DNA from: Eledone cirrhosa
Taxonomy: Eukaryota
Length of the DNA stretch: 64,000 nucleotides
Direction: 5' to 3'
Assembly (NCBI GenBank): GCA_964016885.1
Contig: OZ024743.1
Span: 250,666,001 to 250,730,000, forward strand
Under the pieces are notes generated by a model that saw only the letters and a list, made by a program, of their open reading frames with translations, did not search any database and was not told the origin of the DNA. Below, piece after piece: positions 5,143 through 61,766 of this stretch. How positions within the stretch are numbered: position 1 is the stretch's first letter; each line of letters begins with the position of its first letter. Both the position numbers and the translations under genes were made by a program.

Positions 5143-5192
5143 AGTATGTATGTATACGTACATACATATATGTATACAGACGTACAGTAGCA

Positions 5193-5232
<40 letters not shown>

Positions 5233-5239
<7 letters not shown>

Positions 5240-7760
5240 ATACTTGGGGAGGGTCATATTTGCGTAATATTGCCAGAATTAATAACAAAACACACTCACT
5301 GTTTGGTTGGTTTTCGCTTCTCGCTGTCTTTTATATCTGCGATCTAACTTACTCGGTCCTCAATGTTGCCATTGACTGACCGACGGTCAAAAATAATACA
5401 GATACAATATAGACACAAACACATATATATAGTTTACATAATTTACATAAATCTTTCGTTGCACATCTGCAACATCGTCAGTGGTGTTATATATATATAT
5501 TTTTTTTTCCTCCTGTTGTGTTGTATGTCTACGCCATTTTTTATTCAGTCTGTCTATATATTTATTTATTTATTTGCTTATTTGTTTATTTTATTTTGTC
5601 TTCTTTGTGCATGCGTTTGCGTGTGTGTATAGTGTTATGTGTGCTGTGTGACTAGTGTGTATAGTGTTGTGTCTGCTGGGTGACTAGTGTGTGTTTATGT
5701 GCTTGTTGTTATCGTGCTTGTGTATGTATTTATTTATCTTATTTTATTTTATTTTATTTTATTTATTTACTTATTTATACTTCTCTTAGGTCAGTGTTGT
5801 TTGTTTGGGTGTTGTTGTTGTTCCACTCATTCTTTCTGTTTAGCTTTGGTCTTCTAATTTCTATTTCACTGGCCTCTCTGATTTGCCTATCTGCTGGGTC
5901 ATTCCTATGTTTAGATATTATTCTAATTTCTATGTTGTCTATGTTACCGTCATATTGTTGTCTAGCATGTTCATATAGTACTGACCCGTTTTTTCGTCCT
6001 TTTAGTTCCCCCCAGTGTTGGTCTATCCTTTCACCTATGCTACGAGCTGTCTCACCTATGTATGTTGTTGTCATGTTTCTGCAAGTACCCTCTGTACATC
6101 TTATGCTATAGACTACGTTTCTAGTTTTACAGTTTATCCGGGGGTTCACCTTACATATAATACATTTCCTATTGGTACAGTGGGTTTTCTTAAAAGGGTA
6201 GGTTTTGCTGATCAGGGATTTTATGGTGGTTCCTGGCTTTTCTACCACCTTTATTTTTAAGTGGGTCTTTCTCAGGGCCTTTCTACACTGGTTAGCTAAT
6301 TTCCCTCCAGGGGTGGCGTCCACAAACATGACACTCTGATATCTCTGGTTGTCGTACCATGATGTGGCCTTCCCTATCTTATGTCTAGCCCTATCTAAGC
6401 TATTCCAGGATTTGCTCCTGTATAGTGGGCAAATACCTTTCATGTCCAGTTCTATGAGTGTCTTATACTTTTCCATGGCTCCTTCGTATACTCTGACTCT
6501 GTCTCTTTGGTTGTAGCCAGAGAACTGCATGCGGTTGATGAAGTGTTGGATGTGTCTTTCCATTTCTGTTGGGTCGCACATGCTGGACACATTCTTCATC
6601 ACTCGGACCAAATCTGCGATCAGAATATTAAACTTAGCACTACTGGACATTGCTGAGTTTTTGAGTATCAGGTATTTGGAGGTATAAATAAGTAAATAAA
6701 TAGTGGTAGAAAAGCCAGGAACCACCATAAAATCCCTGATCAGCAAAACCTACCCTTTTAAGAAAACCCACTGTACCAATAGGAAATGTATCATATGTAA
6801 GGTGAACCCCCGGATAAACTGTAAAACTAGAAACGTAGTCTATAGCATAAGATGTACAGAGGGTACTTGCAGAAACATGACAACAACATACATAGGTGAG
6901 ACAGCTCGTAGCATAGGTGAAAGGATAGACCAACACTGGGGGGAACTAAAAGGACGAAAAAACGGGTCAGTACTATATGAACATGCTAGACAACAATATG
7001 ACGGTAACATAGACAACATAGAAATTAGAATAATATCTAAACATAGGAATGACCCAGCAGATAGGCAAATCAGAGAGGCCAGTGAAATAGAAATTAGCAG
7101 ACCAAAGCTAAACAGAAAGAATGAGTGGAACAACAACAACACCCAAACAAACAACACTGACCTAAGAGAAGTATAAATAAGTAAATAAATAAAATAAAAT
7201 AAAATAAAATAAGATAAATAAATACATACACAAGCACAATAACAACAAGCACATAAACACACACTAGTCACCCAGCAGACACAACACTATACACACTAGT
7301 CACACAGCACACATAACACTATACACACACGCAAACGCATGCACAAAGAAGACAAAATAAAATAAACAAACAAGCAAATAAATAAATAAATATATAGACA
7401 GACTGAATAAAAAATGGCGTAGACATACAACACAACAGGAGGAAAAAAAAAAAAAATATAACACCACTGACGATGTTGCAGATGTGCAACGAAAGATTTA
7501 TGTAAATTATGTAAACTATATATATGTGTTTGTGTCTATATTGTATCTGTATTATTTTTGACCGTCGGTCAGTCAATGGCAACATTGAGGACCGAGTAAG
7601 TTAGATCGCAGATATAAAAGACAGCGAGAAGCGAAAACCAACCAAACAGTGAGTGTGTTCTGTTATTAATTCTGGCAATATTACGCAAATATGACCCTCC
7701 CCAAGTATAACAATATCTGTTTCGACACACGATTTCATATAAAAAACCTCGCTAAACTAA
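5233..7760. mobile_element. Penelope-like element, two 5'-truncated copies back to back (- 5233-6682; + 6703-7760); same family as 26451-32055
   Basis: ORFs 5775..6746(-) and 6703..7176(+) reproduce the C-terminus of the 1210-aa ORF; pLTR at both ends; embedded in (TA)n. Confidence 0.95.
7467..7494 (+). ncRNA. HHR-like core in the PLE pLTR (also 5454-5481 -, 16794-16821 +, 26737-26764 -, 30870-30897 -, 31800-31827 +)
   Basis: CTGACGA-t-GTTGCA(gatg)TGCAAC-GAAA; stems I and III could not be closed convincingly. Confidence 0.5.
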
Positions 7761-7937
7761 TATATATATATATATATATATACATACAGGTACACATACA
7801 TATATGTACGTATCAGTTTAGCGGACGCTTATTATAACGCCCGCTTTGTTCGTTTGTAAACAAACTGAACAGCCTGAATTTATGCCGTACGGTGTTAAGG
7901 CAACCACGTCACCTTTTTGTTCAACACTGACACAGGA

Positions 7938-8248: not shown

Positions 8249-8547
8249 CAGGTACACATACATATATGTACGTATCAGTTTAGCGGACGCTTATTATAAC
8301 GCCTGCTTTGTTCGTTTGTAAACAAACTGAACAGCCTGAATTTATGCCGTACGGTGTTAAGGCAACCACGTCACCTTTTTGTTCAACACTGACACAGGAA
8401 CGATGTACTAGTTTCATTTTATTACAACTTATCGTTCTCGGTACGCCTGACCGAACTCACTCGATATGCAAATTAGGCTGCTCAGCCGTTAATTTTCATA
8501 AGGAAAGTATATACTTTCGAACGTTCAACCATCTGGCAGAAGGGTAT

Positions 8548-8590
8548 ACGGTGCTGATGATAGCTAACAAGCTTGAAACTAGTACATCGT
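8548..8590 (+). ncRNA. Minimal type I hammerhead ribozyme
   Basis: ACGGTG-CTGATGA-tAGCT(aaca)AGCTt-GAAAC(ta)GTA-CATCGT; 6-bp stem I, palindromic stem III ACTAGT, predicted cut after 8584. Confidence 0.85.
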
Positions 8591-8741
8591 TCCTATGTCA
8601 GTGTTGAACAAAAAGGTGACGTGGTTGCCTTAACACCGTACGGCATAAATTCAGGCTGTTCAGTTTGTTTACAAACGAACAAAGCGGGCGTTATAATAAG
8701 CGTCCGCTAAACTGATACGTACATATATGTATGTGTACCTG

Positions 8742-16370: not shown

Positions 16371-16428
16371 ATTATAAAAATTATAAAAATAGACAAAGAA
16401 GACTTCAATACATCAAAAGTCTTTATTC

Positions 16429-16469
16429 GCCTACAATGTTTCGTCCCATTAATAAGGACTCATTAGGGC
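16429..16469 (-). ncRNA. Mirror HHR copy with mutated core (CTAATGA)
   Basis: Reverse complement of 16487-16527 with a G-to-A change in the core. Confidence 0.75.
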
Positions 16470-16486
16470 AATTAATCTGTTTAATT

Positions 16487-16527
16487 GCCCTGATGAGTCC
16501 TTATTAATGGGACGAAACATTGTAGGC
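16487..16527 (+). ncRNA. Canonical minimal type I hammerhead ribozyme
   Basis: GCC-CTGATGA-GTCC(ttattaatg)GGAC-GAAAC(att)GTA-GGC; predicted cut after 16524. Confidence 0.92.
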
Positions 16528-16674
16528 TAATAAAGACTTTTGATGTATTGAAGACTTCTTTGTCTATTTTTATAATTTTTCGGCTCTGTTGTATTACATT
16601 GAGCTATATCCTATACTGCCATTTCTATAATATGACGAGTGTGTTTTACTCCAACGCACTCTAGTATTTTAATT

Positions 16675-16707
<33 letters not shown>

Positions 16708-16709
<2 letters not shown>

Positions 16710-17026
16710 CGCATGCGCAGAGAAGAAAAATAAATAAATAAACAAACTAAATAAAGATGGCATAGGCATACGGGAGGAAATATAATAGCACCACTGACGA
16801 TGTTACAGATGTGCAACGAAAGAACTTTGTTAGACTATATATATGTGTTTGTGTCTATATTGTATCTGTATTTTTGACCGTTGGTCAGTCAATGGTAACA
16901 TTGAGGACCGAATAAATTAAATTAACCGATATAAAAGACACAGAAGCGAAAACCAACCAAACAGTGAGTGTGTTCTGTTATTAATTCTGGCAATTTTATT
17001 TCACAAATATGACCCTCCCCAAGTAT

Positions 17027-17032
<6 letters not shown>
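16708..17032 (+). mobile_element. Diverged solo pLTR fragment of the main PLE family
   Basis: Aligns by eye to ~7335-7713; ends in 'ccccaagtataacaata(ta)n'. Confidence 0.85.
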
Positions 17033-17116
<84 letters not shown>

Positions 17117-17243
17117 TTAGGGTAAATATTGATGCAATTCAATTCAAGCACTCAACGTACTTTTTCCACATAGGAGTGACGGAGTAAATATCGAATAAAT
17201 AAAAGCGAAGTAGTTTCAGATGTTCAAGTCCTTTAATAATAAT

Positions 17244-17317
17244 GCTGTGATATATATTTCAATGACGACACTGGCCACACTGTTCTGTGTGCGAGTGTCG
17301 TGACATCATCAGACAGC
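17244..17317 (-). ncRNA. Type I HHR, unit 1
   Basis: GCTGT-CTGATGA-tgtcACGACACTcgCACAC(agaaca)GTGTGgccAGTGTCGTcatt-GAAA-TATATA-TC-ACAGC. Confidence 0.85.
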
Positions 17318-18505
17318 TTGTTACATAATAAGGTTATGTTTCCGAGGCAATCCAAGTTGAATCGACATGGGAATGGACGAAGTGTGTGCTTTTGGGTTCA
17401 TCCGTTCCCCTGTGAGTACCAATTCACCCCCACCGGTCTGCGCAGGCGCATGTCCGAAGGAAGTTGACCATTAGCTACCCCAGATTTGAACGAAATTCGC
17501 TTAGTCAGTTCACCCTCTCAGCCAAATAATGACCCATTTAGGCCTGCTACCCGCCCGTCTGTGGCAGTCAGCCGAAAGCCAGAGGGGATGGGAGAGTGTT
17601 AGTTTTATACTACCTCTCAACAAGCATGGACAGTACGACTGACCATCAACTCCCAAGAGAAAATATACTTAATTCTAGGTATCATGGTTTTACATTGGAA
17701 GTTATGAGTGAGAGTTGGAAATAAAAATAAAAATCCTAAATCAAAAATCAGAAATTATAAATTAAACAATTAAAAAATTAACAATTAGAAATAAAAAAAT
17801 TGTTCAAGTGAGAATACGGATTGAGGTGAGTAAAAAAATATATAGATTGAAGTGAGTAAATAATATGGAGAGAGATGTTTAAGTAAGAAGTTCTGAGAGG
17901 AGTTCCAATGTCACAGTTAACACTATCCACATATTGAACGATAGTGCCGTACATTAGAACGGAGGGTAAACTACAGTATTCAAGACAGTAGTCAATCTGG
18001 TACACAGTCATAATTTCCATCACATGGAACAAAACCAAAGAAAGACAGATATAAAGTACACAAAAGAAAAGAACCAATAATGAATAAATGCAAAAACACA
18101 GAGTACATATATGCAAAATGATCCATATGATTGTCAATGTATAGATTGAATTGAGGGGGCTTCTGTTCAAAAGCGATTTGGTGCAGGAAAATATGGGTTT
18201 ATCTTAGTTTTTGTTTCCGCGTATTTATCCTGCTGAAAGTTACTATTATGTCCGTCCAGTGTCAGGGGTTTCCATCCCCATGGTAGAGGGAATTTCCAGG
18301 GGTAGCTCATGGTTGGTTCCTCTCTTCTCCACCATATCGGTTATATCATAGAGCGCTCAACTAATTGGAGCTAAATTCTTAGGATAAATATTGATGCAAT
18401 TCAATTCAAGCACTCAACGTACTTTTTCCACATAGGAGTGACGGAGTAAATATCGAATAAATAAAAGCGAAGTAGTTTCAGATGTTCAAGTCCTTTAATA
18501 ATAAT

Positions 18506-18579
18506 GCTGTGATATATATTTCAATGACGACACTGGCCACACTGTTCTGTGTGCGAGTGTCGTGACATCATCAGACAGC
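18506..18579 (-). ncRNA. Type I HHR, unit 2
   Basis: Same sequence as 17244-17317, shifted by 1262. Confidence 0.85.
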
Positions 18580-19767
18580 TTGTTACATAATAAGGTTATG
18601 TTTCCGAGGCAATCCAAGTTGAATCGACATGGGAATGGACGAAGTGTGTGCTTTTGGGTTCATCCGTTCCCCTGTGAGTACCAATTCACCCCCACCGGTC
18701 TGCGCAGGCGCATGTCCGAAGGAAGTTGACCATTAGCTACCCCAGATTTGAACGAAATTCGCTTAGTCAGTTCACCCTCTCAGCCAAATAATGACCCATT
18801 TAGGCCTGCTACCCGCCCGTCTGTGGCAGTCAGCCGAAAGCCAGAGGGGATGGGAGAGTGTTAGTTTTATACTACCTCTCAACAAGCATGGACAGTACGA
18901 CTGACCATCAACTCCCAAGAGAAAATATACTTAATTCTAGGTATCATGGTTTTACATTGGAAGTTATGAGTGAGAGTTGGAAATAAAAATAAAAATCCTA
19001 AATCAAAAATCAGAAATTATAAATTAAACAATTAAAAAATTAACAATTAGAAATAAAAAAATTGTTCAAGTGAGAATACGGATTGAGGTGAGTAAAAAAA
19101 TATATAGATTGAAGTGAGTAAATAATATGGAGAGAGATGTTTAAGTAAGAAGTTCTGAGAGGAGTTCCAATGTCACAGTTAACACTATCCACATATTGAA
19201 CGATAGTGCCGTACATTAGAACGGAGGGTAAACTACAGTATTCAAGACAGTAGTCAATCTGGTACACAGTCATAATTTCCATCACATGGAACAAAACCAA
19301 AGAAAGACAGATATAAAGTACACAAAAGAAAAGAACCAATAATGAATAAATGCAAAAACACAGAGTACATATATGCAAAATGATCCATATGATTGTCAAT
19401 GTATAGATTGAATTGAGGGGGCTTCTGTTCAAAAGCGATTTGGTGCAGGAAAATATGGGTTTATCTTAGTTTTTGTTTCCGCGTATTTATCCTGCTGAAA
19501 GTTACTATTATGTCCGTCCAGTGTCAGGGGTTTCCATCCCCATGGTAGAGGGAATTTCCAGGGGTAGCTCATGGTTGGTTCCTCTCTTCTCCACCATATC
19601 GGTTATATCATAGAGCACTCAACTAATTGGAGCTAAATTCTTAGGATAAATATTGATGCAATTCAATTCAAGCACTCAACGTACTTTTTCCACATCGGAG
19701 TGACGGAGTAAATATCGAATAAGTAAAAGCGAAGTAGTTTCAGATGTTCAAGTCCTTTAATAATAAT

Positions 19768-19841
19768 GCTGTGATATATATTTCAATGACGACACTGGCC
19801 ACACTGTCCTGTGTGCGAGTGTCGTGGCATCATCAGACAGT
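19768..19841 (-). ncRNA. Type I HHR, unit 3 (a few substitutions, core intact)
   Basis: Shifted by a further 1262; CTGATGA, GAAA and ATC retained. Confidence 0.8.
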
Positions 19842-20994
19842 TTGTTACATAATAAGGTTATGTTTCCGAGGCAATCCAAGTTGAATCGACATGGGAACGG
19901 ACGAAGTGTGTGCTTTTGGATTCTTCATCCGTTCCCCTGTGAGTACCAATTCACCCCCACCGGTCTGCGCAGGCGCATGTCCGAAGGAAGTTGACCATTA
20001 GCTACCGCAGATTTCAACGAAATTCGCTTAGTCAGTTCACTCTCTCAGCCAAACAATGACCCATTTAGGCCTGTACCATAGTTTACTGCTACCCGTCCCG
20101 TCTGTGGCAGTCGCTTTTGAACAGAAGCCCCCTCAATTCAATCTATACATTGACAAATTGACAATCATATGGATCATTTTGCATATATGTACTCTGTATT
20201 TTTGCATTTATTCATTATTGGTTCTTTTCTTTTGTGTACTTTATATCTGTTTTTCTTTGGTTTTGTTCCATGTGATGGAAATTATGACTGTTTACCAGAT
20301 TGACTACTGCCAGATTGACTGTTTACCAGATTGACTACTGCCTTGAATACTGTAGTTTCCCCTCCGGCACTATCGTTCAATATGTGGATAGTGTAACTGT
20401 GACATTGGAACCCCTCTCAGAACTTCTTACTTAAACATCTCTCTCCATATTATTTACTCACTTCAATCTATGTTTTTTTTACTCACCTCAATCTGGATTC
20501 TCACTTGAACAATTTTTTAATTTCTAATTGTTAATTTTTTAATTGTTTAATTCATAATTTCTGATTTTTGATTTAGGATTTTTATTTTTATTTCCAACTC
20601 TCACTCATAACTTCCAATGTAAAACCATGATACATAGAATTAAGTATATTTTCTCTTGGGAGTTGATGGTCAGTCGTACTGTCCATGCTTGTTGAGAGGT
20701 AGTATAAAACTAACACTCTCCCATCCCCTCTGGCTTTCGGCTGACTGCCACAGACAGGGTAGCAGGCCTAAATGGGTCGTTATTTGGCTGACAAGGTGAA
20801 CTGACTAAGCGAATTTCGTTGAAATCTGCGGTAGCTAATGGTCAACTTCCTTCAGACATGCGCCTGCGCAGACCGGTGGGGGTGAATTGGTACTCACAGG
20901 GGAACGGATGAAGAACCCAAAAGCACACACTTCGTCCGTTCCCATGTCGATTCAACTTGGATTGCTTCGGAAACATAACCTTATTATGTAACAA

Positions 20995-21068
20995 GCTGTC
21001 TGATGATGTCACGACACTCGCACACAGAACATTGTGGCCAGTGTCGTCATTGAAATATATATCACAGC
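20995..21068 (+). ncRNA. Type I HHR in the inverted unit
   Basis: gctgt CTGATGA ... GAAA tatata TC acagc read directly on +. Confidence 0.85.
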
Positions 21069-21070
21069 AT

Positions 21071-21180
21071 TGCCGAGGTTAACTTTGCCTTTCATCCTTA
21101 CGGGGTCGATAAAATAAAGTACCAGTAATACACTGAGGTAATTGCTGGCCTTGTGCCAAAAGTAGAAACAATTATTATTA
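21071..21180 (+). mobile_element. 5'-truncated Nin/Deu SINE inserted just 3' of the HHR
   Basis: SINE core and tail; the host repeat resumes at ~21181. Confidence 0.85.
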
Positions 21181-21455
21181 AATGACTTGAACATCTGAAA
21201 GTACTTCGTTTTACTTATTCTATATATATATATATAAAAAAAAAATAAATAAATAAAAAAAAAAATAAATAAAAATAAAAAAAAAATTAAAAAAAAAAAA
21301 TTATCCGGGAAAGACTGCCCTAAAACCGGTCAGAGTTACCTCCCTTGACCTGCAGCAAAATCAAAACAAGATATTTTTGCGAGCAATGAATCTTGATGTA
21401 GATTTAACCCCCAAAACTCTTTCCGAACTATATAAGGAGCACTTGTGATTATTTA

Positions 21456-26395: not shown

Positions 26396-32162
<5,767 letters not shown>

Positions 32163-37151: not shown

Positions 37152-40100
37152 CATCATCATCATCATCATCATCAACGTTTAACGTCCGTGTTCCACGCTT
37201 GCATGGGTTTGGATGGGGGTAGTCCCACTTGAGGCAAGAGTGATTGTCTTGCTCGCATAGGACTGTCTGGCAGGTTTTCTACAGTTGGATGCCCTTCCTA
37301 ACACCAACCACATTTACAGTGTGGGTCTGGGAGGTTTTTACCGTGTTGCCTACACGGCCCCATTACAGCGTGGACTGTGTGTTTTTTTGTCGTGACACCT
37401 ACACGATCTCATTTGTTTCGGCCTGGATGGCGCGGCACCAACATAACTTTACATAGAACGGGGTGGTGTGGATGGGGTGGAGGTGGTGGGACGGGGGGGG
37501 GTATTTTGTTAGAGATGCCTACTGGCTGGAGTAGGTTTTACTATATATTTAGGTAAGGCGGGTCTTCTCTGTTACTGAGTACCGCCAAAGGTCTCAGTCC
37601 AGTGACATTGTCTTGGAGAGGTGTAAGTGTGTGAGGTCGGAGTTTATCAGCTCGTCCCAGGTTTTTCTAGGTCTGCCTATTCCATGGCTACCGTCTATCT
37701 TTATTGCCCTGCACTTTGTTATACAGCTATCGACTTTCATGCGCATCACGTGTCCATACCAACGTAGCCTTCTCTCGAGTAAACAACATCTGATCCCTTT
37801 TATCTCTAATTTTTTCCTTAGTTCGTTTATGCTTTGCCGTTCACGTATATTACTGTTACACATCCAGCGGAGCATGCAAGCTTCGTTCCTCTCTAGTCTG
37901 CGTATATCCTCTGCACACAATGCCCAGGTCTCACTGCCATGCAACATTGTTGTTCGTATGCTGGCATCGTACAACCTGCCTTTCATTTTTAGGGAGAACC
38001 CTTTAGCAGCTAATAGTGGTATAAGCTCTCTGAACTTTTTCCAACCAGTTCTGACTCTAGCTACTGTACTTTCAGAGCACCCTCCCCCACTGCTGATTTT
38101 ATTGCCCAGGTAACGGAAGCTGTCCACTATTTCTATAGAACCCTCTGCGCAATTGAAAGAGCTAGTATTTGTGGGCACTTGCTGCTACTTATTGCACCAG
38201 AACACCGGCCACATGTAAAATCTATGTTCTTAGTTAGCTTACCTGTGATCCCACTACATCTTTTATGCACCCATACTTTGCATTTAGGACATAAAATGGA
38301 GTTTCTACCTACGACCATTTCCCAGAAGGGACCGCCGCCTTGTTTTCTTTCCTACAAACTAGAACTTTAGCCTTAGCCAGGTTAATTTTAAGTCCTTTTA
38401 ACTCTAGGCCGTGCTTCCATGTTTGGAATTTCTTCACTAGCTCGGCCATTGATTCCGCTCTGAGTGTCAGGTCATCTGCGTATAGGAGTTCCCATGGGCA
38501 GCCGGTCTTGAACTCCTCTGTTATAGCCTGAAGGGCAATAATAAATAGTAGGGGGCTGAGAACAGAGCCCTGATGGACGCCAACTTTTACGCTAAACTCT
38601 TCACTATATTCGTTGTTAATTCTAACCTTGCTGACCGTTTCTTTATACATGGCTTGTATAGCCCTCACAAGCCATTCGTCAACGCCTAGTTTTCTAAGAG
38701 CCCACCAGATAATGGAGCGGGGGACTCTGTCGAAGGCTTTCTCCAAGTCGACAAAAGCTAAGTAGAGGGGTTTACCTTTAGCTAGGTACTTCTCCTGTAG
38801 TTGTCGTACTATGAAAAGAGCGTCTGTGGTACTTTTGCCTGACACAAACCCGAACTGCATTTCATCTAGGTCAATTCTCTCTCTGATTAGTTGCGCTATT
38901 ACTTTTTCTGTGACCCTCATGACCTGGTCGATTAATTTAATGCCTCTATAGTTACTCCTATCTAGGGCGTCTCCTTTACCCTTATAACAGTTAACGATGA
39001 TGCTGCTATGCCAGTCCTTCGGAACAACCCCATTCTGTACGACTTGGTTAACTATGCGGGTGACCATGGTGTGTCCCACCGTGCCAGATGCCTTCAGCAT
39101 CTCAGCAACTATTTCCGAAGGCCCAGCCGCCTTACCCGTCTTCATATCCTTGATTGCCTTACTTATTGTACTCCCCTCGACTAACACTGCTGGTCCCTCT
39201 ATTCGGTCGATATGGGGGAGACTGTCTTTCTCCCATTTATTCTCCTCATTTAGTAGCCTTTCATAGTGACACTTCCAAGCTACCTTCTTATCAGCGTCGG
39301 TGATGGCAAGTGTGCCATCATCGTTTAGTACACACTTCTCCCCGACAATATCACGGTTTTCCTTGACGCATTGCCTAGCAATCCTGAACACCTCACGTTT
39401 TTGGTCCTCGCGTTGTAGAACATGCTTGAACTTTCTTTCCTCAGCTTCCCTTCTTGCTAAGTACACTTGTCTCCTAGCTTCCCTCCTGGCCACTTGATAG
39501 TCTTCTCTACTTCCCCCATCCCGCCATACTTTCCAAGCCTGCTTTTTGGCCTTAATTGACCCCTCCACTTTACTGTTCCACCACCATGTTACTCTCCTCC
39601 TGCCTACAGGCCTGCTCCAGCCACAGACTTCGTCTGTCGCCATCAGCAGGTTTGCTTTCAGAAATTCCCACTGTCCCTCTATATTGTCCGACTGTAAATG
39701 TTCTTCCTTACTGTCGAAAGCATCAAGTAATATGCTTTGAAATTTATTTCTGGCTGTGGGGTCCTTTAGCTTCCATATTTTTCTCCTGAGGATAGTCCTC
39801 TTCTGCTGTCGAGTACGTCTCGTCCTGACTATGAGGTCGCTAATTATCAGTCTATGTTGGGAGGTGCATTCTTCATGGGGGAGGGATATAGTGTTTACGA
39901 CAGACACTCTGTCACGTCTTCTGGTAAGGATATAATCTACCTGGCTTGTGTTCCCCGGATCTATAGGTGATCAGGTGATTGTCACGTTTTTTGAAGTTAG
40001 TGTTACAGATAGTTAGATTATTTGCATCACAGAATTCCAGAATTCTGGAGCCTTCCTCATTTCTAGTACCAAACCCATAGCCTCCATGGATTTCGTCGTA

Positions 40101-40885
40101 GCCGTCACAATGTTGTCCAACGTGACCATTTAGGTCGCCTGCAATAATTATATAGTCACTGTCGGATATTTGGGAGGTAGTTAGCATCAGTGTCTCATAG
40201 AATCTGTCTTTTATAGTGTCGGGCAGTCCGGATTGGGGTGCGTACGCAGATATTACTGTCACCGTAGTTCTATTGAGGACAAGTCGTATTTTAATTATTC
40301 TGTCGTTCACTCTATTTACGTCTATTATCTTATCTGCCCACTTTTCTGCTACCATGATTCCTACTCCACCCAGCCCATCGTCGTTTCCCACCCAGAAAAG
40401 CTTATAACATCGTTTTTTACCCTCAATGAATCTAGCAGACCCACCCCTCCACCTGGTCTCTTGAATACAACATACATCGACCTCCTTACGTTCAAGCATT
40501 TCTACAACCTCGTTAGCGCGACCCTTTAGGGTTCCTACATTTATGGTACCAACTCTGAAGTTTGGGATTGCGTTTGGAGGATGGGGGCGGTGGGGGGCGG
40601 GGGGAGATGGGGTTATGTTAGCCATCCGCGGACGAAACAAAGAGGAGAGCTCGCATTCTCGTCCACGAGGTGAATTTGACTTTAACTTTGGCATTTTCGC
40701 TGAGCGTCCAGATTTTTCTCTCCCTTCCACTCTCCAGGATTCCGCAGTCCATCCATCCATCCATCATATATCGAAGGCAACCGGGCAAGCGATAGTATAG
40801 GCCTCTGGCTTATGATTGGTCCGCGTAATAATAATAATGGTGATGCGGGGGGGGGGGGGCTCTGGCTTATGATTGGTCCACGTAT
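37151..40885 (-). mobile_element. Near full-length RTE LINE, single ORF broken by frameshifts
   Basis: APE endonuclease (TINVGTL, CIQETRW, SAYAPQ, GDLNGHVG; 39912-40760), RT (38309-39907), C-terminal RWYGHVMRM. Confidence 0.95.
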
Positions 40886-51062: not shown

Positions 51063-54058
51063 TTTTACATCCGCTCTTCCCTGCTCGCAAGGGTGGGACA
51101 GGTCTTATTCAGCACAGCATCTCTCCACTCATCACGGTCCTTCGTCATCTCCACCGTGAGCTTCAACGATCTGAGGTCTGTACTTACCACCTCCGCCCAT
51201 GTTTTTCGTGGGCTACCTCTACCACGTCTTCCTTCAACTGGCATTTCCTGGCACTTCTTCACCTATCGGTCATCCCTCTCAGACACAATTTCTCTTTCAA
51301 CACATTCATGCTGGGTCGTTCACGTACATTTACACTGCACATCCAACGGAGCATGCTTGCCTCATTTCTCTTCAGCCGTCGCATATCCTCTGCAGTTGCT
51401 GCCCATGTCTCACTACCATGCAGCATCACGCTCCTTAGACAGGCATCATTCAACCGGTCTTTCATACGCAGGGAAAAACCCTTCTTCGTCAGCAGAGGAA
51501 GCAGCTCCCTAAATTCTTCCAACCTGTCCTTATTCTAGATACTATAGCCTTGGAACACTCTCCTCCCATGCTAATCTGATCTCCTAGGTACCGGAAGCTA
51601 TCCACCACTTCTATAGCACCCTCCTGCATTTGAAAAATGTAATATCAATGCGACTTTTACTGTCTAATTTCCCTGTACATCTACTGCATACATATTTCTC
51701 CCTACCTGTTAGTTTGCCTGCTATCCCGCTACATCTCTTGTGTACCCAGGATCTGCATTGTGTGCATTTTATAGAATTTATGCTAGTTCCTTTTCTGCAT
51801 ATCGAACATGGCCATTTCCCTGGCGGAACCAGAGTTTTGTCCTCTTTTCTACTCATCAACACTTTTGTCTTAGCTAGGTTCACTCTGAGTCCTCTTGCTT
51901 CCAACTGCTGTTTCCATAGCCAGAATTTATTCTCTAGCTCCTCTACTGATTCTGCTACAAGAACCAGATCGTCAGCATAGAGAAGTTCCCATGAAGAGCC
52001 AGTCTTAAACTCCTCTGTTATGGCTTGGAGGACTATAATGAACAAGAGCGGGCTGAGGACCGAACCTTGATGTACTCCTACTTGTATCTGGAATTCCTCA
52101 CTAAACTCCATTCCTACCCTGACTTTAATGAGTGTACCTCTGTACAAAGTTTGCACTGTCCTCACAAGCCATTCCTCAACACCTAGTTTCCTTAGGGACC
52201 ACCAGATGACAGATCGGGGTACCCTATCAAAGGCCTTCTCTAGGTCAACAAAGGCTAAGTATAGTGGCTTATTTTTCTCTAAGAACCTCTCTTCCAATTG
52301 TCTCACCAAGAAGAGGACATCTGTTGTACTCTTCCTAGGCACAAAACCAAACTGCATCTCATCTACTTTGACCCTTTCTCTAATTAATTGTGCTAATATC
52401 GTCTCTGCAATTTTCATAACCTGATCCATCAGTTTTATACCCCTATAATTGCTCCTCTTCAGAGCATCCCCTTTACCTTTGTAGCAATTTATGAGAATAT
52501 TGCTGCACCAGTCTTTGGGTATGACACCACCATATATAGCCTGATTGATGATGCGCGCAACCAGTTTAGTGCCTACATCCCCTGATGCCTTCAGCATCTC
52601 AGCAACTATTCCCGATGGTCCAGCAGCCTTACCATTTTTCATTTCCTTAATCACCTCTTGGACCCTATATTCGTCAATCTCAATAGCTGGTCCCTCTGTC
52701 GGATCTACTAAGGGTAATTTCTCTCTCTCCCATTCGTTCTCCACATTCATCAGTCTCTCATAATGACATTTCCAGGCCTCCTTTTTCTGATCATTCGTGA
52801 CACTAAGTACACTGGCATCATCCCAGACACATTTATCTCCAACAACATCCTGATTTGCATTGGCACACTGCCTTGCAATGGGGAACACCGCACGCCTCTG
52901 ATCTTCCCGTCGCAGAACATTGGCAAACCTCCTACTCTCAGCCTCCCTGCGTGCTAAGTACACCTGACGTCTAGCTTCTTTCTTAGCGGCTGTATATTCT
53001 TCCCTACTCCCACCCTTTTTCCAAGCCTTCCATGCTAGTCTTTTGTCTCTAATGGCCTTATCTACTGTGCTGTTCCACCACCAGGTCACTCTCTGTCTGG
53101 TTGGAGCTCTGCTCCAGCCACAAGTTTCATCAGTAACCTGTAGCAAGTTGTCACGTAAGAAATTCCAGTTATTATCTATGTCATGAATGAAAATGAAAAA
53201 AATGAAATGATGTCATACGTCTATAAATCGTCTCCTTTTTCGTCATATACATCTTGAAGGGCTTTCCTAAATTTGTATTTTAGTGAAAGGTCTTTTAGCT
53301 TGCAGACCTTTCTTCTCCACACTTTCCTGTATGTCTCATTCCATCTCTTGCTTACTGAGATATCACTAACGACTAACCTATGCTGTGGGGTACAATATTC
53401 CCCAGGGTATGCCTTGGTATTAGACACTATCTGCCTGTCCTGCTGCCTAACTAGTAAGAAGTCAATCTGGCTTATGTGCTCGCCAGATTTATAGTTTATT
53501 AGGTTATTGCTCGCCAGATTTATAGGTTATTAGGTTATTGGCAGGTTTCTGGAAGTTTCTGGAAGTCAGTGTACTTGCATCACAAAATTCAAGAAGTCTC
53601 AATCCTTCATTTCTTGAGCCGTAACCGTGCCCACCATGTACCCCAGTGTAACCATCCTGGAGCTGTCCAACATAACCATTGAAGTCCCCTGCTAGCATAA
53701 TGATGTCTCCGTCCTCTGTCATTGCGGTTGTTTGTAAAAGTTGCTTGGGGAGCATAGGCAGAGATGATTGTCAGTAGTCTCCTGCCTACAACTAATTTAA
53801 GCTTAATTATTCGATTACTAAATCGAACTACCTCTATTGTCTTATTGATCCATCTCTCAGCCAGGAAAATGCCTACTCCCCCTAACCCATCATCCTTACC
53901 TACCCAGAAAAGCTTATATCTAAGATGTTTGCCTACGACTAGTCTCGCAGAGGCACCTTTCCATCTCACCTCTTGCACGCAGCACACATCCACATGCCTT
54001 CTCTCCAGCATCTCCGCTATTTCAGTAGATCTACCTCTGAGAGTGCCAACATTAAGTG
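51062..54058 (-). mobile_element. Near full-length RTE LINE of a second subfamily, disrupted
   Basis: APE (CCVQEVRW, SAYAPQ, GDFNG), RT 51611..53146 (LYADDL), C-terminal GSETW. Confidence 0.93.
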
Positions 54059-54406
54059 ATGATGATAATAATGTGTGTGTGTTTATGATTATGTATCTAT
54101 GTGTATAATCATTTGTATTTGACGCAATGATTTTTTTCTTCTTTTAAATAACCTATTAATGAGGTATTTCCAGTCAACAGACAAATTGACTAGTCTTAAA
54201 TCTTCCCCTGAGTAATTAACTATCAAACATTATAACACACACACACACATAGACACAAGCTCATTACATTTTCTTTTATATTTTGCAAATAATTACGGGT
54301 CACTAGTAATTAGAACAACAATAAAAAATGTATACCAAACACTTAAAAATGATTCTTCTGATTTGTAATAAAAATATTATTATTATTATTATTATTATTA
54401 CTATGA

Positions 54407-57137: not shown

Positions 57138-60100
57138 TCATATATAAAGAGTCTTGCAAAGCTTCTTGGGCCAATGTACTCGCCGACCGCTACGTGTGGT
57201 GGTGACATATGTAGGTGTAGGTGTGTGCGATGTTATATGTGTATTGTGGTTTGGCTGATGCCAGGTGTATGTGGGGGGAAAATGGGGCTCTTGTGTGAGA
57301 GTGTCTGTATAGGCCTGTTTTACCCTGTCAATGGACACAGTCTCTTTTTTACCCCCAATGTCTAGGGTGAATAGCTTATCTGTGCGCTCAAGCACGCGAT
57401 AGGGACCGGTATAAGGTGGCATGAGAGGAGCTCTCACGGCGTCCTTTCGTAAAAAGACGTGGGTCCATGAAGCAATGTCTTTCGGGACCGAAGATTTGAT
57501 TGTCTGTTGGCGAGGGTGCATAGGCGGAAGATTGCTGAAATATGATTGCAGTCTGCTCACATACAGAGCTGGGTCTGTTGCTGGTAGGTCCAATGGAGCT
57601 AACATCTGACCAGGCAGAGATATAGGCACTCCGTAAACCAACTCGGCGGGGGAGTAGCCTAGATCTTCCTTGATGGCTGCACGACAGCCCAGGAGGACAA
57701 TTGGTACATATTCGCTCCACCGCTGCTGATCCGGATAAGCGCGCAGTGCGGCTTTCAATTGGCGGTGGAAGCGTTCAACCATTCCGTTAGAAGCTGGATG
57801 GTAGCTGGTCGTTCGAATGCGTTGCATTCCCAGGATCCTTGAAAGCTCTCGGAAAAGGTGTGACTCAAATTGTCCACCGCGGTCAGTGGTGATAGTGGCT
57901 GGAACTCCGTAACGCGATATCCAACCCGATACTAGGGCTCGCGCTACAGATTCCGCCGAAATGTCACTTAAAGGAATGGCTTCAGGCCAACGTGTGAAGC
58001 GATCTATGCAGGTCAGGAGGTATGTAAATCCTCGGCTGACCGGCCATGGTCCGACAAGATCTATATGGACATGGCTGAACCGAGCGTCTGGAGTGCTGAA
58101 AGTTCCAAGGGGTGCGCGGATGTGTTTGTGCACCTTTGACTTTTGGCAGGATAGGCAGGAACGTGTCCAGGCAGTGATGTCACGCCTCATATTAGGCCAG
58201 AAGAATCTAGCCGAAATGAGCTTCACCGTGGTCGATATTCCAGGGTGTGCCAGACCGTACAAGGTGTCGAAAACTGCTCGACGATGAGTCACTGGCACTA
58301 GAGGGCGAGGTGCATCTGTCGAGGTGTCGCAGATAATCTGTGTGTCCGAAGTGGGCACAGGCAGATATGCAAATTTGCCAGTTGCAAATTCAGAAGACGA
58401 GAGGTCCAAAGTATCCAGAGGTGGTTGTTCTGTGGCCATTCGTTGGAGGTCGATTTCCGCTGGCGATGACAGGGAATTAATTGGGAGGCGAGACAGTGCA
58501 TCTGCCGCCGCATTCTGTTCACCAGAGATGTGTCGGATATCGCTGGTAAATTGCGAAGCGAAGTCCAAGTGGCGAGTTTCGCGAGGTGAATATTTGTCCG
58601 GCTTAGAACGCAGTGCGAACGTAAGCGGACGGTGGTCAGTGTATATAACAAATTGGCGACCCTCCAGTGAATGCCGAAAGTGTTTCACTGCAAGGTACAT
58701 AGCCAAGAGTTCACGGCCGAATGTGCTATACCGTGTTTCTGCAGGCTTCAGCTGTTTAGAAAAGTAGGCAAGAGGTTGTAACTGTTGTTGGTGATGTTGT
58801 TGCAGTACTGCACCTACAGCTGTGCCTGATGCATCAACAACCAGTGAAAACTGGGCACCAGACACAGGATGTGCAAGCAGTGATGTCTCCGCAAGCTTCC
58901 GCTTCACTTCGTCGAAAGCTTTTAGCTGATTCGTGTCCAATGAAATGGAATCGTTCTTCTTTTTCCTGTTACGTAACAGGTCGGACAGAGGAGACAGGAG
59001 ATCCGCACAGTGTGGGATAAAGCGCCTGTAATAGTTCAGTAGCCCAAGGAAATGTCGTAGTTGACGAAGTGAAGTGGGTGGTTGGAGGTCTTGTACCGCT
59101 TTCACTTTATCAGGTAGTGGCGAAATTCCTTCTGGGCTGATGACATGGCCCAAGAAGACAAGTGAGGAAGCACCGAAAACACATTTTGCCGGATTAATTC
59201 TCACTTGGTATTTTTGAAATCTCTCGAACAGGAGACGGAGGTGAGTGACATGTTCCTCAGGTGAGGCACTTGCCACAAGAATGTCGTCGATGTAGTTGTA
59301 CACGAAGTCTAAATCGCGCACAACTTCATCCATAAATCGTTGGAACGTGCTGGCTGCGTTTCGCAAACCGAAAGGCATGGTCAAAAATTCAAACGCTCCA
59401 AATGGAGTTGTTACTGCAGTTTTAGGTATGTCTGCCGGGTTCACCGGGATTTGGTGGTATGCTTTGACCAAATCCAATTTGGAGAATATGTTGCATCCAT
59501 GCAGCGAAGATGCAAAATACTGTATGTGTGGTATCGGGTAGCGGTCGGGTACCGTCATTGCATTTAACCGGCGAAAGTCCCCAGTGGGACGCCAATCACC
59601 GGAACGCTTTGGTACCAAATGCAAGGGTGCGGCCCACGGGCTTGAGGATGGGCGAATGATCCCGAGCTGCAGCATGTGATTGAATTCAGCCTTTGCGGCC
59701 TTCAGTTTCTCAGCAGAGAGACGGCGAGTTCGCGAAAACACAGGAGCTCCGGATGTTTCAATGTGGTGCTTGGTGGAGTGAGTAGGCTCACTCATCACAA
59801 AATTCAAATTTGTTAATTCCGGGAAGGAATGCAAAAGTGATTGGTAAGGATCTTCTGTAGCAGCGATAAAGAAGACCGGGCTGACCGACGAGACAGTCGA
59901 TCTGGTACCCGGCACAGACAGTTCTGTGTTGGCATCCAACAACCGGCGTCTGCGCATATCCACTATCAAGTTATAGTGGTGCAGGAAATCTGAGCCTAGG
60001 ATGGGGTAAGGCAGATCAGCAACAGTGAAGATCCACGTGAAATCTCTACGCAATTCCAGGTTCAAAGAACGAGAAATCTGACCGTACGTGGGGATCGGTG

Positions 60101-60299
60101 ACTGGTTTACTGCTTGCAGAGAGACGGTTGAGAGTTGGGGCTTCTCTTTGAGAAGTTTTAGCGGCCAAATGCTACAAGCCGCGCCGGTGTCGATCAGACA
60201 ACGTGCTTGCGACTCAGTGTCTGTGATGAAAAATACACGGTTATTAGGGAGGGTCAGAGGAGACTGTGCCGTGCTCAGGTCTCCTGAAATCTGTTTCCC
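57138..60299 (-). CDS. pol: Gypsy Pol (protease, RT, RNase H, integrase), likely expressed by -1 frameshift
   Basis: [50 protein letters not shown]. Confidence 0.96.
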
Positions 60300-61124
60300 T
60301 GGTCTGAAAATGTACAAGGCTGTTTACAGGAGCGTGCTGCTGCGCCAAAACGGCTGTGGTAGTAACACAAACCTGAACTGCTTGTGTGACGGCGTCGTGG
60401 TGAGGGTGAACGGCTCTGGAAACGGCGTCTGGGCGAATGAGCCCTGTGAGTGCTTAGTTTTCTCACTTCCTTGGTTAGCTGCTCTATTGCTTGCAGCATT
60501 TGCAAGTGACTGGTCGGTATAACTGGCAGCCGCTGGAGTGAAGGAAGCGACCGCAGTCGGCGGCTGAGATACATTGAAGGAGACAGGAGCGAACGGATTG
60601 ACCGCAGCCGGTGGCTGAGGTGCCTGGAAGGGGGCAAATGAGGCTGGGTGTCCGATGACACTCATAACCCTGTCGGCCGAAGCCGCTAGCTGGTCGACAG
60701 GAGCAGCCTCCATCATGGGCGCTAAGATCGCCTGAACTCCGGGGGGTAGCCTTGAGACAAAAAGCTGTCTAAGGAGGGCACTGTCAGCTGGGGCATCTTC
60801 CGCCAGCTCTCTCATCCGACGCAGTAGTTGTGTGGGCGTCCGATCACGCAAATGTTCGTCATTGACGAGCGTCTGAAATTTTTTTTCTGCGGACAATGTG
60901 GTCCGCCGCAACACTTCGAGCTTCACGCTCTCATAGGAGGCCCCAGGGCGAGGATCGGTAATTAAGTCTTTGACGACCGACGTCAATGACGCTGGAAAAG
61001 CGCTTAACAGGAGATTTAACTGTCTGTGGTCACTGGTGATGTTATTCGCTGTGAAATGTGCTTCTATCTGGGCGAACCAGACAGTGACGTCACCGGTAAA
61101 CGGTGGCAATGAAGTGCTACCCAT
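60275..61124 (-). CDS. gag: Gypsy Gag, split by one frameshift at ~60500-60660
   Basis: [13 protein letters not shown]...[11 protein letters not shown] in one frame; coiled coil and [18 protein letters not shown] knuckle in another. Confidence 0.88.
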
Positions 61125-61766
61125 TGTGTATACTGATGTAAAAGCAAAGGGCAAAGAAAGGACAACTCTGCACTTGTCACCGAGACAAAAGTGAAAATTC
61201 AGGCCAAGAAAAAATATAATCCGAGTGAAGGACAGAAAAAGAAAAATATATCAAAAACAATGTTGGAGGGAAAAACGTCAAGCTTTAAAAAAAAAATTAT
61301 GATTTATCTTTGTCCTATTATTATTTTTTTTGTGTACTTTTCAAAATGGCGTTGCCTCCGTCGTTTTGGCGGGAAAACAGCTGAAGAAGACGGAAGTCGG
61401 CCATCTTGCTCTGACCGGCTATCAGCACCAACAGTTTTTTTTTTTTTTTATATAGCGTCGCCCAATCAGAAATTGAGAGGGAAAAATAAGATTTTTGTAT
61501 TAACGCATGTGTTCGGTGATGTTAGAAAGTGAAGGTGTGATGTGCAGATTTAGTAACAATAAGACAATATATCAAATACATATTAGGACTCACGCTAATC
61601 GCGTACATACCCCGAGAAAAGGCGAGTGGCTTTGTTTTTTCTTTTTTTTTGGGGGGGGGGGATGCGAAATGTTGATGTGTTCGTTGCAACGGAAAGATGT
61701 GGTTTCTTCTGTGTTGATGTCCTTAAACGTTCGGGTCACCATTTATAATGTGATTTGTTGTATCGT

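What the first reader, a model, noticed from the sequence alone, without database searches (positions are those of the whole stretch)
17116..21220. Giant retrozyme candidate: 1262-bp non-coding tandem unit with an intact hammerhead in every copy
Seen: four HHRs (three spaced exactly 1262 bp apart, one inverted), 5-bp stem I, extended two-part stem II, palindromic ATATATAT stem III, AUC cleavage site, near-identical units 1 and 2, no credible ORF, and (TA)n at both ends. Established: described metazoan retrozyme monomers are typically a few hundred nt. Inference: tandem transcripts would self-process to a ~1.26-kb monomer or circRNA that is reinserted by a PLE RT, with multimers from rolling-circle-like reverse transcription. 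Best candidate here for an undescribed system.
Basis: partly seen in the sequence, partly recalled or inferred. Interest (0 to 1): 0.88.

Follow-up and report, generated by a model that had tools for sequence, protein, structure and literature searches.

The report
Oversized ribozyme-bearing Penelope parasite element
A 1.3-kb non-coding repeat carrying an unusual hammerhead-ribozyme motif has been copied about a thousand times into TA repeats of this animal genome, likely by borrowing the enzyme of a Penelope-like retrotransposon, and its copy ends follow a strict one-long, one-short rule that likely shows how that enzyme inserts DNA.

Summary
The repeat and its four hammerhead motifs are real, but this is a large variant of a known kind, not a new system. 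It is one copy of a dispersed non-coding family (1,023 exact hits of a 23-base ribozyme arm; monomer about 1.30 kb; sister families about 1.23 and 1.44 kb) with Penelope-like-element (PLE) insertion marks: (TA)n targets, 5' truncation, inverted arms, partial tandems. No linked PLE gene was found. Corrections: 1,262 bp is a locus-private deletion length; the near-identical units are a later local duplication, not rolling-circle products; the third ribozyme is damaged; none has the canonical G10.1-C11.1 pair (U·U or G·U instead), so cleavage is untested. New points: copies end at +56 or +132/133 after the cut site, and 45 of 46 two-ended insertions use one of each; both arms carry the same subfamily variant; 5' ends do not pile up at the cut site, so the template was circular or uncut. 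The scan earlier noted ribozyme-free PLE-type repeats in other genomes, not this family.

The parts
17031..17113 (.). (TA)n target tract at the long 3' end
17116..17248 (-). Long 3' end: 133 nt after the cut site (inferred long reverse-transcription start; +57 to +133 is the 'tail')
17244..17317 (-). Hammerhead motif 1 (5-bp stem I, U10.1·U11.1, C×C in stem II, palindromic stem III, AUC; predicted cut 17249/17248)
17371..17410 (-). 11-bp hairpin upstream of the ribozyme, kept in three families
17440..17449 (-). NRF1-like palindrome (label recalled), 127 nt before the core; candidate internal promoter
   Evidence: same spacing (124 nt) in the pLTR of the window's intact PLE
17249..18510 (-). 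Monomer 1, cut site to cut site (1,262 nt, GC 38%)
18506..18579 (-). Hammerhead motif 2, identical to motif 1
18511..19772 (-). Monomer 2; 3 substitutions from monomer 1; inferred later local duplicate
19768..19841 (-). Hammerhead motif 3, damaged (4-bp stem I, extra stem II mismatch)
19773..20112 (-). 5'-truncated third unit (unit 942-1262), 2.6% substitutions and 3 indels from unit 1
20111..21071 (+). Inverted arm (unit 335-1262), 3.3% substitutions from units 1 and 2
20995..21068 (+). Hammerhead motif 4 (predicted cut 21063/21064)
21072..21170 (+). SINE-like 3' fragment (label recalled) inserted in the ATT run just after stem I
   Evidence: the same site is hit in 28 of 150 heads examined
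21171..21220 (+). Short 3' end, stopping at +56 (inferred short reverse-transcription start)
21221..21236 (.). (TA)8 target tract at the short 3' end

Best explanation
This is a dispersed non-coding 1.3-kb repeat with a hammerhead motif whose copies are likely inserted into (TA)n by the reverse transcriptase-endonuclease of an as yet unidentified Penelope-like element. SHOWN: copy number, dispersal, (TA)n targets, two fixed 3' ends (+56 and +132/133 after the predicted cut site), one of each per two-ended insertion, variable 5' breakpoints, the same subfamily variant in both arms, no conserved ORF. INFERRED: an upstream partial copy supplies a promoter; the PLE protein binds the structured region around the ribozyme, cuts both strands of (TA)n and primes one cDNA from each DNA end, one at +56 and one at +133; the two cDNAs run upstream through the ribozyme, drop off at variable points and join head to head. 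The template is continuous across the cut site and longer than one unit; I take it to be a self-cleaved and re-ligated circle (about 0.5), with uncut tandem transcript close behind. INFERRED for this locus: the insertion had about 1.4 units plus the inverted arm, decayed about 3%, and then one unit was duplicated in place. Odds: non-autonomous PLE-mobilised element 0.9; two-primer model 0.7; local duplication 0.85; ribozyme cleaves in vivo 0.55.
For: 1,023 exact hits of a 23-base arm, reversed control 0; matches on 13 contigs among 40 candidates scored of 2,334. End rule 45 of 46, p about 7e-13 against an even split; true end positions read from junctions; the window's intact PLE shows the same short/long pairing in 2 of 2 two-ended insertions. 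Arms agree at subfamily sites 517 of 550 (33 differences, 228 expected) and direct duplicates 445 of 462 (17 vs 192). In 99 arms from 63 pattern-picked loci none stops at the second cut site and 7 pass it; in 35 best-hit arms 13 pass and 2 stop at +6. Sister families keep the scaffold at about 63-70% identity with monomers of 1,229 and 1,439 nt and no long ORF. Structure covaries across families. Two internal start sites, a tail, AT-rich targets, both-strand cutting and a predicted dimer are shown in vitro for Poseidon (PMC11167929); tails at one end, inversions and (TA)n bias are PLE marks (PMC8557442).
Against: The partner PLE was not found: no shared sequence with the window's PLE, 30 GIY-YIG loci or 13 local PLE ORFs, a small sample of 10,597 candidates. 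G10.1-C11.1, called highly conserved in PLE ribozymes (PMC4209133), is absent in 186 of 186 copies. The Poseidon study saw no start-site difference between strands and no need for ribozyme cleavage. Only 1 of 9 retrozyme dimers cleaved in the preprint. Arm concordance could also come from gene conversion or from one source being active at a time, and pairs are not independent. The covariation control ignores relatedness. Loci came from best hits and from the first 100 pattern hits on one chromosome.
Confidence: 0.8

Rival explanations
1. Same element and enzyme, but the template is an uncut linear transcript read through locally amplified tandem arrays (like this locus). The hammerhead is slow, protein-assisted or dead and is kept mainly as the structure the PLE protein recognises.
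For: No G10.1-C11.1; lowest-energy fold blocks the core through AUC, the effect proposed for AUC in PMC1636495; in Poseidon uncut RNA is the main substrate and no reads end at the cut site; homogeneous multi-unit loci exist that could act as sources.
Against: Core, GAAA, stem I and the stem III palindrome are kept across families about 35% diverged; an unrelated 0.47-0.5-kb family with 10,934 hits has the same U·U pair and near-identical multimers (adjacent units 0-0.7% in 9 of 12 comparisons printed as 0-2.7%, between loci 3.8%); 11 of 18 distinct breakpoints beyond a second cut site lie upstream of the candidate promoter.
Confidence: 0.4
2. One reading: the near-identical tandem units were made at insertion by rolling-circle reverse transcription of a 1,262-nt circle.
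For: Units 1 and 2 differ at 2 bases; more-than-unit copies are common among best hits; the small family's multimers look like this.
Against: Unit 3 in the same arm differs by 2.6% and 3 indels, the inverted arm by 3.3%; five deletions of unit 1 occur in 0 of 17 other monomers; the same pattern holds at L005 (0.2% between full units, 3.5% to the partial) and the 10-unit array has an alternating A/B arm.
Confidence: 0.1
3. The unit is the pLTR plus leader of an autonomous PLE whose full copies were not sampled, and the family is only its 5'-truncated debris.
For: pLTR-like layout (candidate promoter, ribozyme, two ends) as in the window's intact PLE; small sample of the genome's PLEs.
Against: The unit closes on itself head to tail without an ORF in 18 monomers and in two sister families; nearby PLE ORFs are nested or separate insertions.
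Confidence: 0.07
4. A satellite DNA spread by DNA-level recombination, with a chance or fossil ribozyme.
For: Local duplication did act here and at two other loci.
Against: Fixed 3' ends, variable 5' ends, inversions and (TA)n targets in 86 loci; only 7 of 99 arms exceed one unit.
Confidence: 0.02

Closest known systems
Animal non-LTR retrozymes (Cervera and de la Pena 2020, PMC7229834; Li, Clavereau and Pollet 2026, 10.64898/2026.07.22.740005)
   Same: Non-coding, low-GC unit with one type I hammerhead per monomer, dispersed monomers and tandems, proposed mobilisation by PLEs.
Poseidon PLE of the green anole (Frangieh et al. 2024, PMC11167929)
   Same: Two internal start sites downstream of the ribozyme, tail between them, AT-rich targets, no homology needed at the start site.
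   Different: Autonomous there; tail 30-40 nt against 76-77 nt here; no strand difference in vitro, whereas here each insertion uses one site per end.
[quoted passage not shown]
   Same: 4-5-bp stem I, long stem II, palindromic stem III, predicted dimer action.
   Different: They keep G10.1-C11.1 with an extra base after A9; here stem II opens with U·U, R-U, U-A, C×C.
Non-autonomous Chlamys PLEs such as MRC1 (Craig et al. 2021, PMC8557442)
   Same: Non-coding PLE parasites with pLTRs, head-to-tail copies and microsatellite targets.
   Different: Algal; they usually resemble their partner at the 3' end, and most Chlamys lack canonical hammerheads; no partner found here.

Membership tests
Non-LTR retrozyme | Type I hammerhead motif in each repeat unit | tested here: met
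   Core and stem I intact in 105 of 139 family copies; motif in all four window copies, one damaged
Non-LTR retrozyme | Canonical hammerhead (G10.1-C11.1) | tested here: not met
   U·U in 139 of 139 family copies; U·U 32, G·U 13, other 2 of 47 in sister families; G-C in none
Non-LTR retrozyme | No protein coded | tested here: met
   No ORF shared by 18 monomers; no PLE remnant; no Pfam hit over cut-off, though Pfam also misses the intact PLE
Non-LTR retrozyme | Short monomer (about 170-400 nt; up to 972 bp in the 2026 preprint) | tested here: not met
   1,262-1,322 nt; sisters 1,229 and 1,439
Non-LTR retrozyme | [quoted passage not shown] | tested here: met
   Met at this locus, but only 7 of 99 pattern-picked arms pass a second cut site
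Non-LTR retrozyme | GC below 45% | tested here: met
   38.4%
Non-LTR retrozyme | Highly self-paired monomer | tested here: inconclusive
   Circular fold z = -2.1, 0 of 40 shuffles as low, 58% paired
Non-LTR retrozyme | Self-cleavage | not testable with these tools
   Needs in vitro assay
Non-LTR retrozyme | Expressed as circular RNA | not testable with these tools
   Needs RNA from the organism
Autonomous EN+ Penelope-like element | ORF with RT and GIY-YIG endonuclease | tested here: not met
PLE-mobilised non-autonomous element | 5' truncation, partial tandems, inverted 5' copy | tested here: met
PLE-mobilised non-autonomous element | Tail at one end only | tested here: met
   45 of 46 two-ended insertions
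PLE-mobilised non-autonomous element | Microsatellite / AT-rich targets | tested here: met
   121 of 134 ends classed as TA or TC runs
PLE-mobilised non-autonomous element | Sequence shared with an autonomous partner's pLTR | tested here: inconclusive
   None found in a small sample

The most novel reading that the evidence does not exclude
A long-lived lineage of 1.2-1.4-kb non-coding circular RNAs, the largest animal retrozymes so far, processed by an active hammerhead with U·U in place of the conserved G10.1-C11.1 pair, and copied by a dimeric PLE enzyme whose two halves prime the two DNA ends at different fixed sites and sometimes stutter at the short site like telomerase, making new (TC)n microsatellites.
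Probability: 0.2. Interest if true: 0.72.

Novelty: new variant of a known kind. Interest (0 to 1): 0.45.

Why it matters
How PLEs make their tandem and inverted insertions is named as open in PMC8557442. A family of about a thousand coding-free copies gives a clean readout: the 45-of-46 rule predicts that the enzyme uses a different start site for each DNA end, which can be tested in the existing in vitro system. The size shows that surveys capped at 1 kb miss such elements. If the U·U ribozyme cleaves, hammerhead descriptors need widening: Rfam missed all four copies, and two unrelated families here carry the variant in about 12,000 exact hits. If it does not cleave, the motif is a conserved protein-binding structure.

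Tried and rejected
Expression: no RNA holder listed; four contig sets of unknown kind from one study cover 28, 28, 28 and 22 of 30 bins but cannot show strand, ends or level. Rfam: no hammerhead match, only weak unrelated hits. No tRNA. The sigma-70 scan is not relevant to an animal. Partner search: window PLE, 30 GIY-YIG loci (only L105 holds a separate family copy), 13 local PLE ORFs (best E 0.34 for this family, 0.04 for a sister; the L046 hit is an ORF running into the element), upstream walk of family B over 30 loci: none found. An AUG inside the ribozyme, as in Poseidon, gives only 15 codons here. BLAST ends at +64 and +139 were overshoot into (TA)n; junction reading put them at +56 and +132/133, so my first idea of priming by microhomology was dropped. 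A promoter-bounded linear transcript from a two-unit source does not fit breakpoints far upstream. Lunse et al. 2017 on PLE ribozyme variants was not held and may describe U·U forms. The last part of the script failed and was redone. Earlier-finding look-ups by sequence and by place were empty.
Full report
1. Observation. Units 1 and 2 differ at 2 of 1,262 bases. Both ends abut (TA)n. There is no credible ORF and no tRNA. The layout is a 2.4-unit arm ending at 17116, joined head to head at about 20111 to an inverted arm ending at 21220, the latter interrupted by a 99-bp SINE-like fragment (label recalled). 'Intact in every copy' fails: copy 3 is damaged, and in all four stem II opens with U·U, G·U, U-A, C×C. 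Rfam sees none of them.

2. A dispersed family. The host is an unnamed 3.0-Gb animal genome. The unit has 2,334 first-look candidates, 40 scored, on 13 contigs. A 23-base ribozyme arm has 1,023 exact hits, reversed control 0; a few of these belong to sister families. I examined 86 family loci: best hits and the first 100 pattern hits on one chromosome, after merging overlapping loci and dropping two duplicates and six sister-family loci. Seventeen other complete monomers are 1,275-1,322 nt, median pairwise divergence 6.1% over 153 pairs; the window unit carries five deletions (38 nt) seen in 0 of 17. Sister families align over the whole unit at about 63% (family C, monomer 1,229) or around the ribozyme at about 70% (family B, monomer 1,439, longest open frame 64 codons). 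The lineage has therefore stayed large and non-coding for a long time (inference).

3. Insertion anatomy. Junctions show two fixed 3' ends, +56 and +132/133 after the predicted cut site; the internal sequence after +56 does not match (TA)n, so no target homology is needed. Of 134 ends, 121 run into TA or TC repeats; 45 of 46 two-ended insertions have one short and one long end, and the exception has a second end broken at +48. The intact PLE in the window (27033-30686, 1,217 aa) shows the same pairing in its two two-ended insertions but shares no sequence with the unit. At 53 subfamily-diagnostic sites the arms of one insertion agree 517 of 550 times (228 differences expected if independent, 33 seen) and direct duplicates 445 of 462; these pairs are not independent and conversion could add to the agreement. 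5' ends are scattered: in 99 arms from 63 pattern-picked loci none stops at the second cut site and 7 pass it; in 35 best-hit arms 13 pass and 2 stop at +6, which is also an insertion hot spot. So a cleaved linear monomer is not the usual template (inference).

4. Origin of the near-identical units. Partial direct duplicates within an arm differ by 3.1% pooled (25 pairs) and inverted arms by a median 3.9% (44 pairs). Full extra units are far closer: 0.2% here and at L005, and in a 10-unit array 0.9-1.9% in one arm, an A/B alternation (0.2-1.0% within, about 5% between) in the other. Here unit 3 lacks the private 15-, 3- and 1-nt deletions of units 1 and 2. The simplest reading is duplication in place after insertion, not rolling-circle copying.

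5. The ribozyme. In 139 family copies the core is intact in 126, GAAA in 138, core plus stem I in 105; position 10.1/11.1 is U·U in 139, and U·U or G·U in 45 of 47 sister copies; C×C at the fourth pair is kept in 174 of 186 (copies were found by anchors on the core and GAAA, which inflates those counts). The second pair changes from G·U to A-U between families, supporting the register; the named structure is 90.4% paired with 17 two-sided changes, above nearly all shuffles, a control that ignores relatedness. An unrelated 0.47-0.5-kb family, present in the window at 8554, has U·U too and 10,934 exact hits. Against activity: G10.1-C11.1 is described as highly conserved (PMC4209133), the lowest-energy fold pairs the core with AUC, and AUC is rare in natural hammerheads for that proposed reason (PMC1636495). 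The stem III palindrome can pair between two copies (-3.2 kcal/mol). Activity is open.

6. Mechanism. I infer target-primed reverse transcription by a PLE protein in trans, one cDNA from each end of a cut in (TA)n, started at +56 and +133, on a template continuous across the cut site: a circle (about 0.5) or an uncut tandem transcript (about 0.4). An NRF1-like palindrome (label recalled) lies 127 nt before the core, 124 nt in the window's PLE, and may be the promoter. A side result: (TC)n of three or more units lies between the short end and (TA)n in 12 of 76 short ends and 0 of 58 long ends (Fisher p 0.001), and 6 of 7 such two-ended insertions have no matching (GA)n on the far side. Telomerase-like stuttering would explain it, but (TC)n(TA)m of this polarity is also common away from the element (40 cases against 2 of the other polarity), so later slippage from the terminal TC is as likely.

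7. Comparison and novelty. It works like a non-autonomous PLE and meets those tests except for a named partner. As a non-LTR retrozyme it fails size and canonical ribozyme, and cleavage and circRNA are untested, so I file it as retrozyme-like, a new variant. The 2026 preprint reports 51-972 bp with the repeat period capped at 1,000, so 1.3 kb is a modest extension. Tails at one end are known qualitatively. I found no report of a larger-than-1-kb animal retrozyme, a U10.1·U11.1 hammerhead or a counted one-short-one-long rule in nine searches; subscription papers and repeat databases were not searched.

8. What I read. 10.64898/2026.07.22.740005: parts 1-3 of 5 (abstract to discussion); its supplements are closed and may list longer families. 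PMC4209133 and PMC11167929: parts 1-2 of 4; supplements not opened. PMC7229834: passages and sections 14 and 17. PMC8557442, PMC6765202, PMC8490949, PMC13282606, PMC1636495: passages only. PMC5785218 (Lunse et al. 2017): not held, title only; it may cover such variants.

9. Verdict. Real feature, new variant of a known kind, interest 0.45. The value lies less in size than in the end rule and the non-canonical ribozyme, both directly testable.

Noticed in passing
window 8270-8715 (core 8554-8584, +): Palindromic insertion of a second, unrelated hammerhead repeat family (monomer about 0.46-0.52 kb, U10.1·U11.1, GUA site) with 10,934 exact hits; young multimers nearly identical within a locus and 3.8% apart between loci. 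A better candidate for an active rolling-circle retrozyme.
   Followed up: partly
window 16376-16580 (core from 16490, +): Palindromic insertion with a third hammerhead that has the canonical G-C pair.
   Followed up: no
window 27033-30686 (-), pLTRs 26450-27033 and 30640-32060; fragments 5147-7804, 16709-17030: Intact 1,217-aa PLE ORF with a hammerhead-like core and short/long ends in (TA)n; Pfam does not detect it. A pLTR fragment sits tail to tail with the finding in the same (TA)n.
   Followed up: partly
window 21072-21170 and 28 of 150 heads in family loci: The ATT run 6-9 nt after the cut site is a hot spot for a SINE-like element with an (ATT)n tail.
   Followed up: partly
L031-L032 (G000:C1:130881868-130893894): Ten-unit head-to-head array of the family; one arm homogenised, the other alternating A/B; a template jump at unit position 2 near its short end.
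   Followed up: partly
L033:4743-7001: A PLE 64% identical in protein to the window's PLE is nested inside the AT-rich part of a family copy.
   Followed up: no
all fetched loci: Compound microsatellites are polarised: (TC)n followed by (TA)m 66 times, (GA)n followed by (TA)m twice.
   Followed up: partly
window 38309-40763 (-), 51611-54143 (-), 57138-61250 (-): RTE-like LINE ORFs and a gag-pol-like LTR retrotransposon region (labels recalled from the translations).
   Followed up: no
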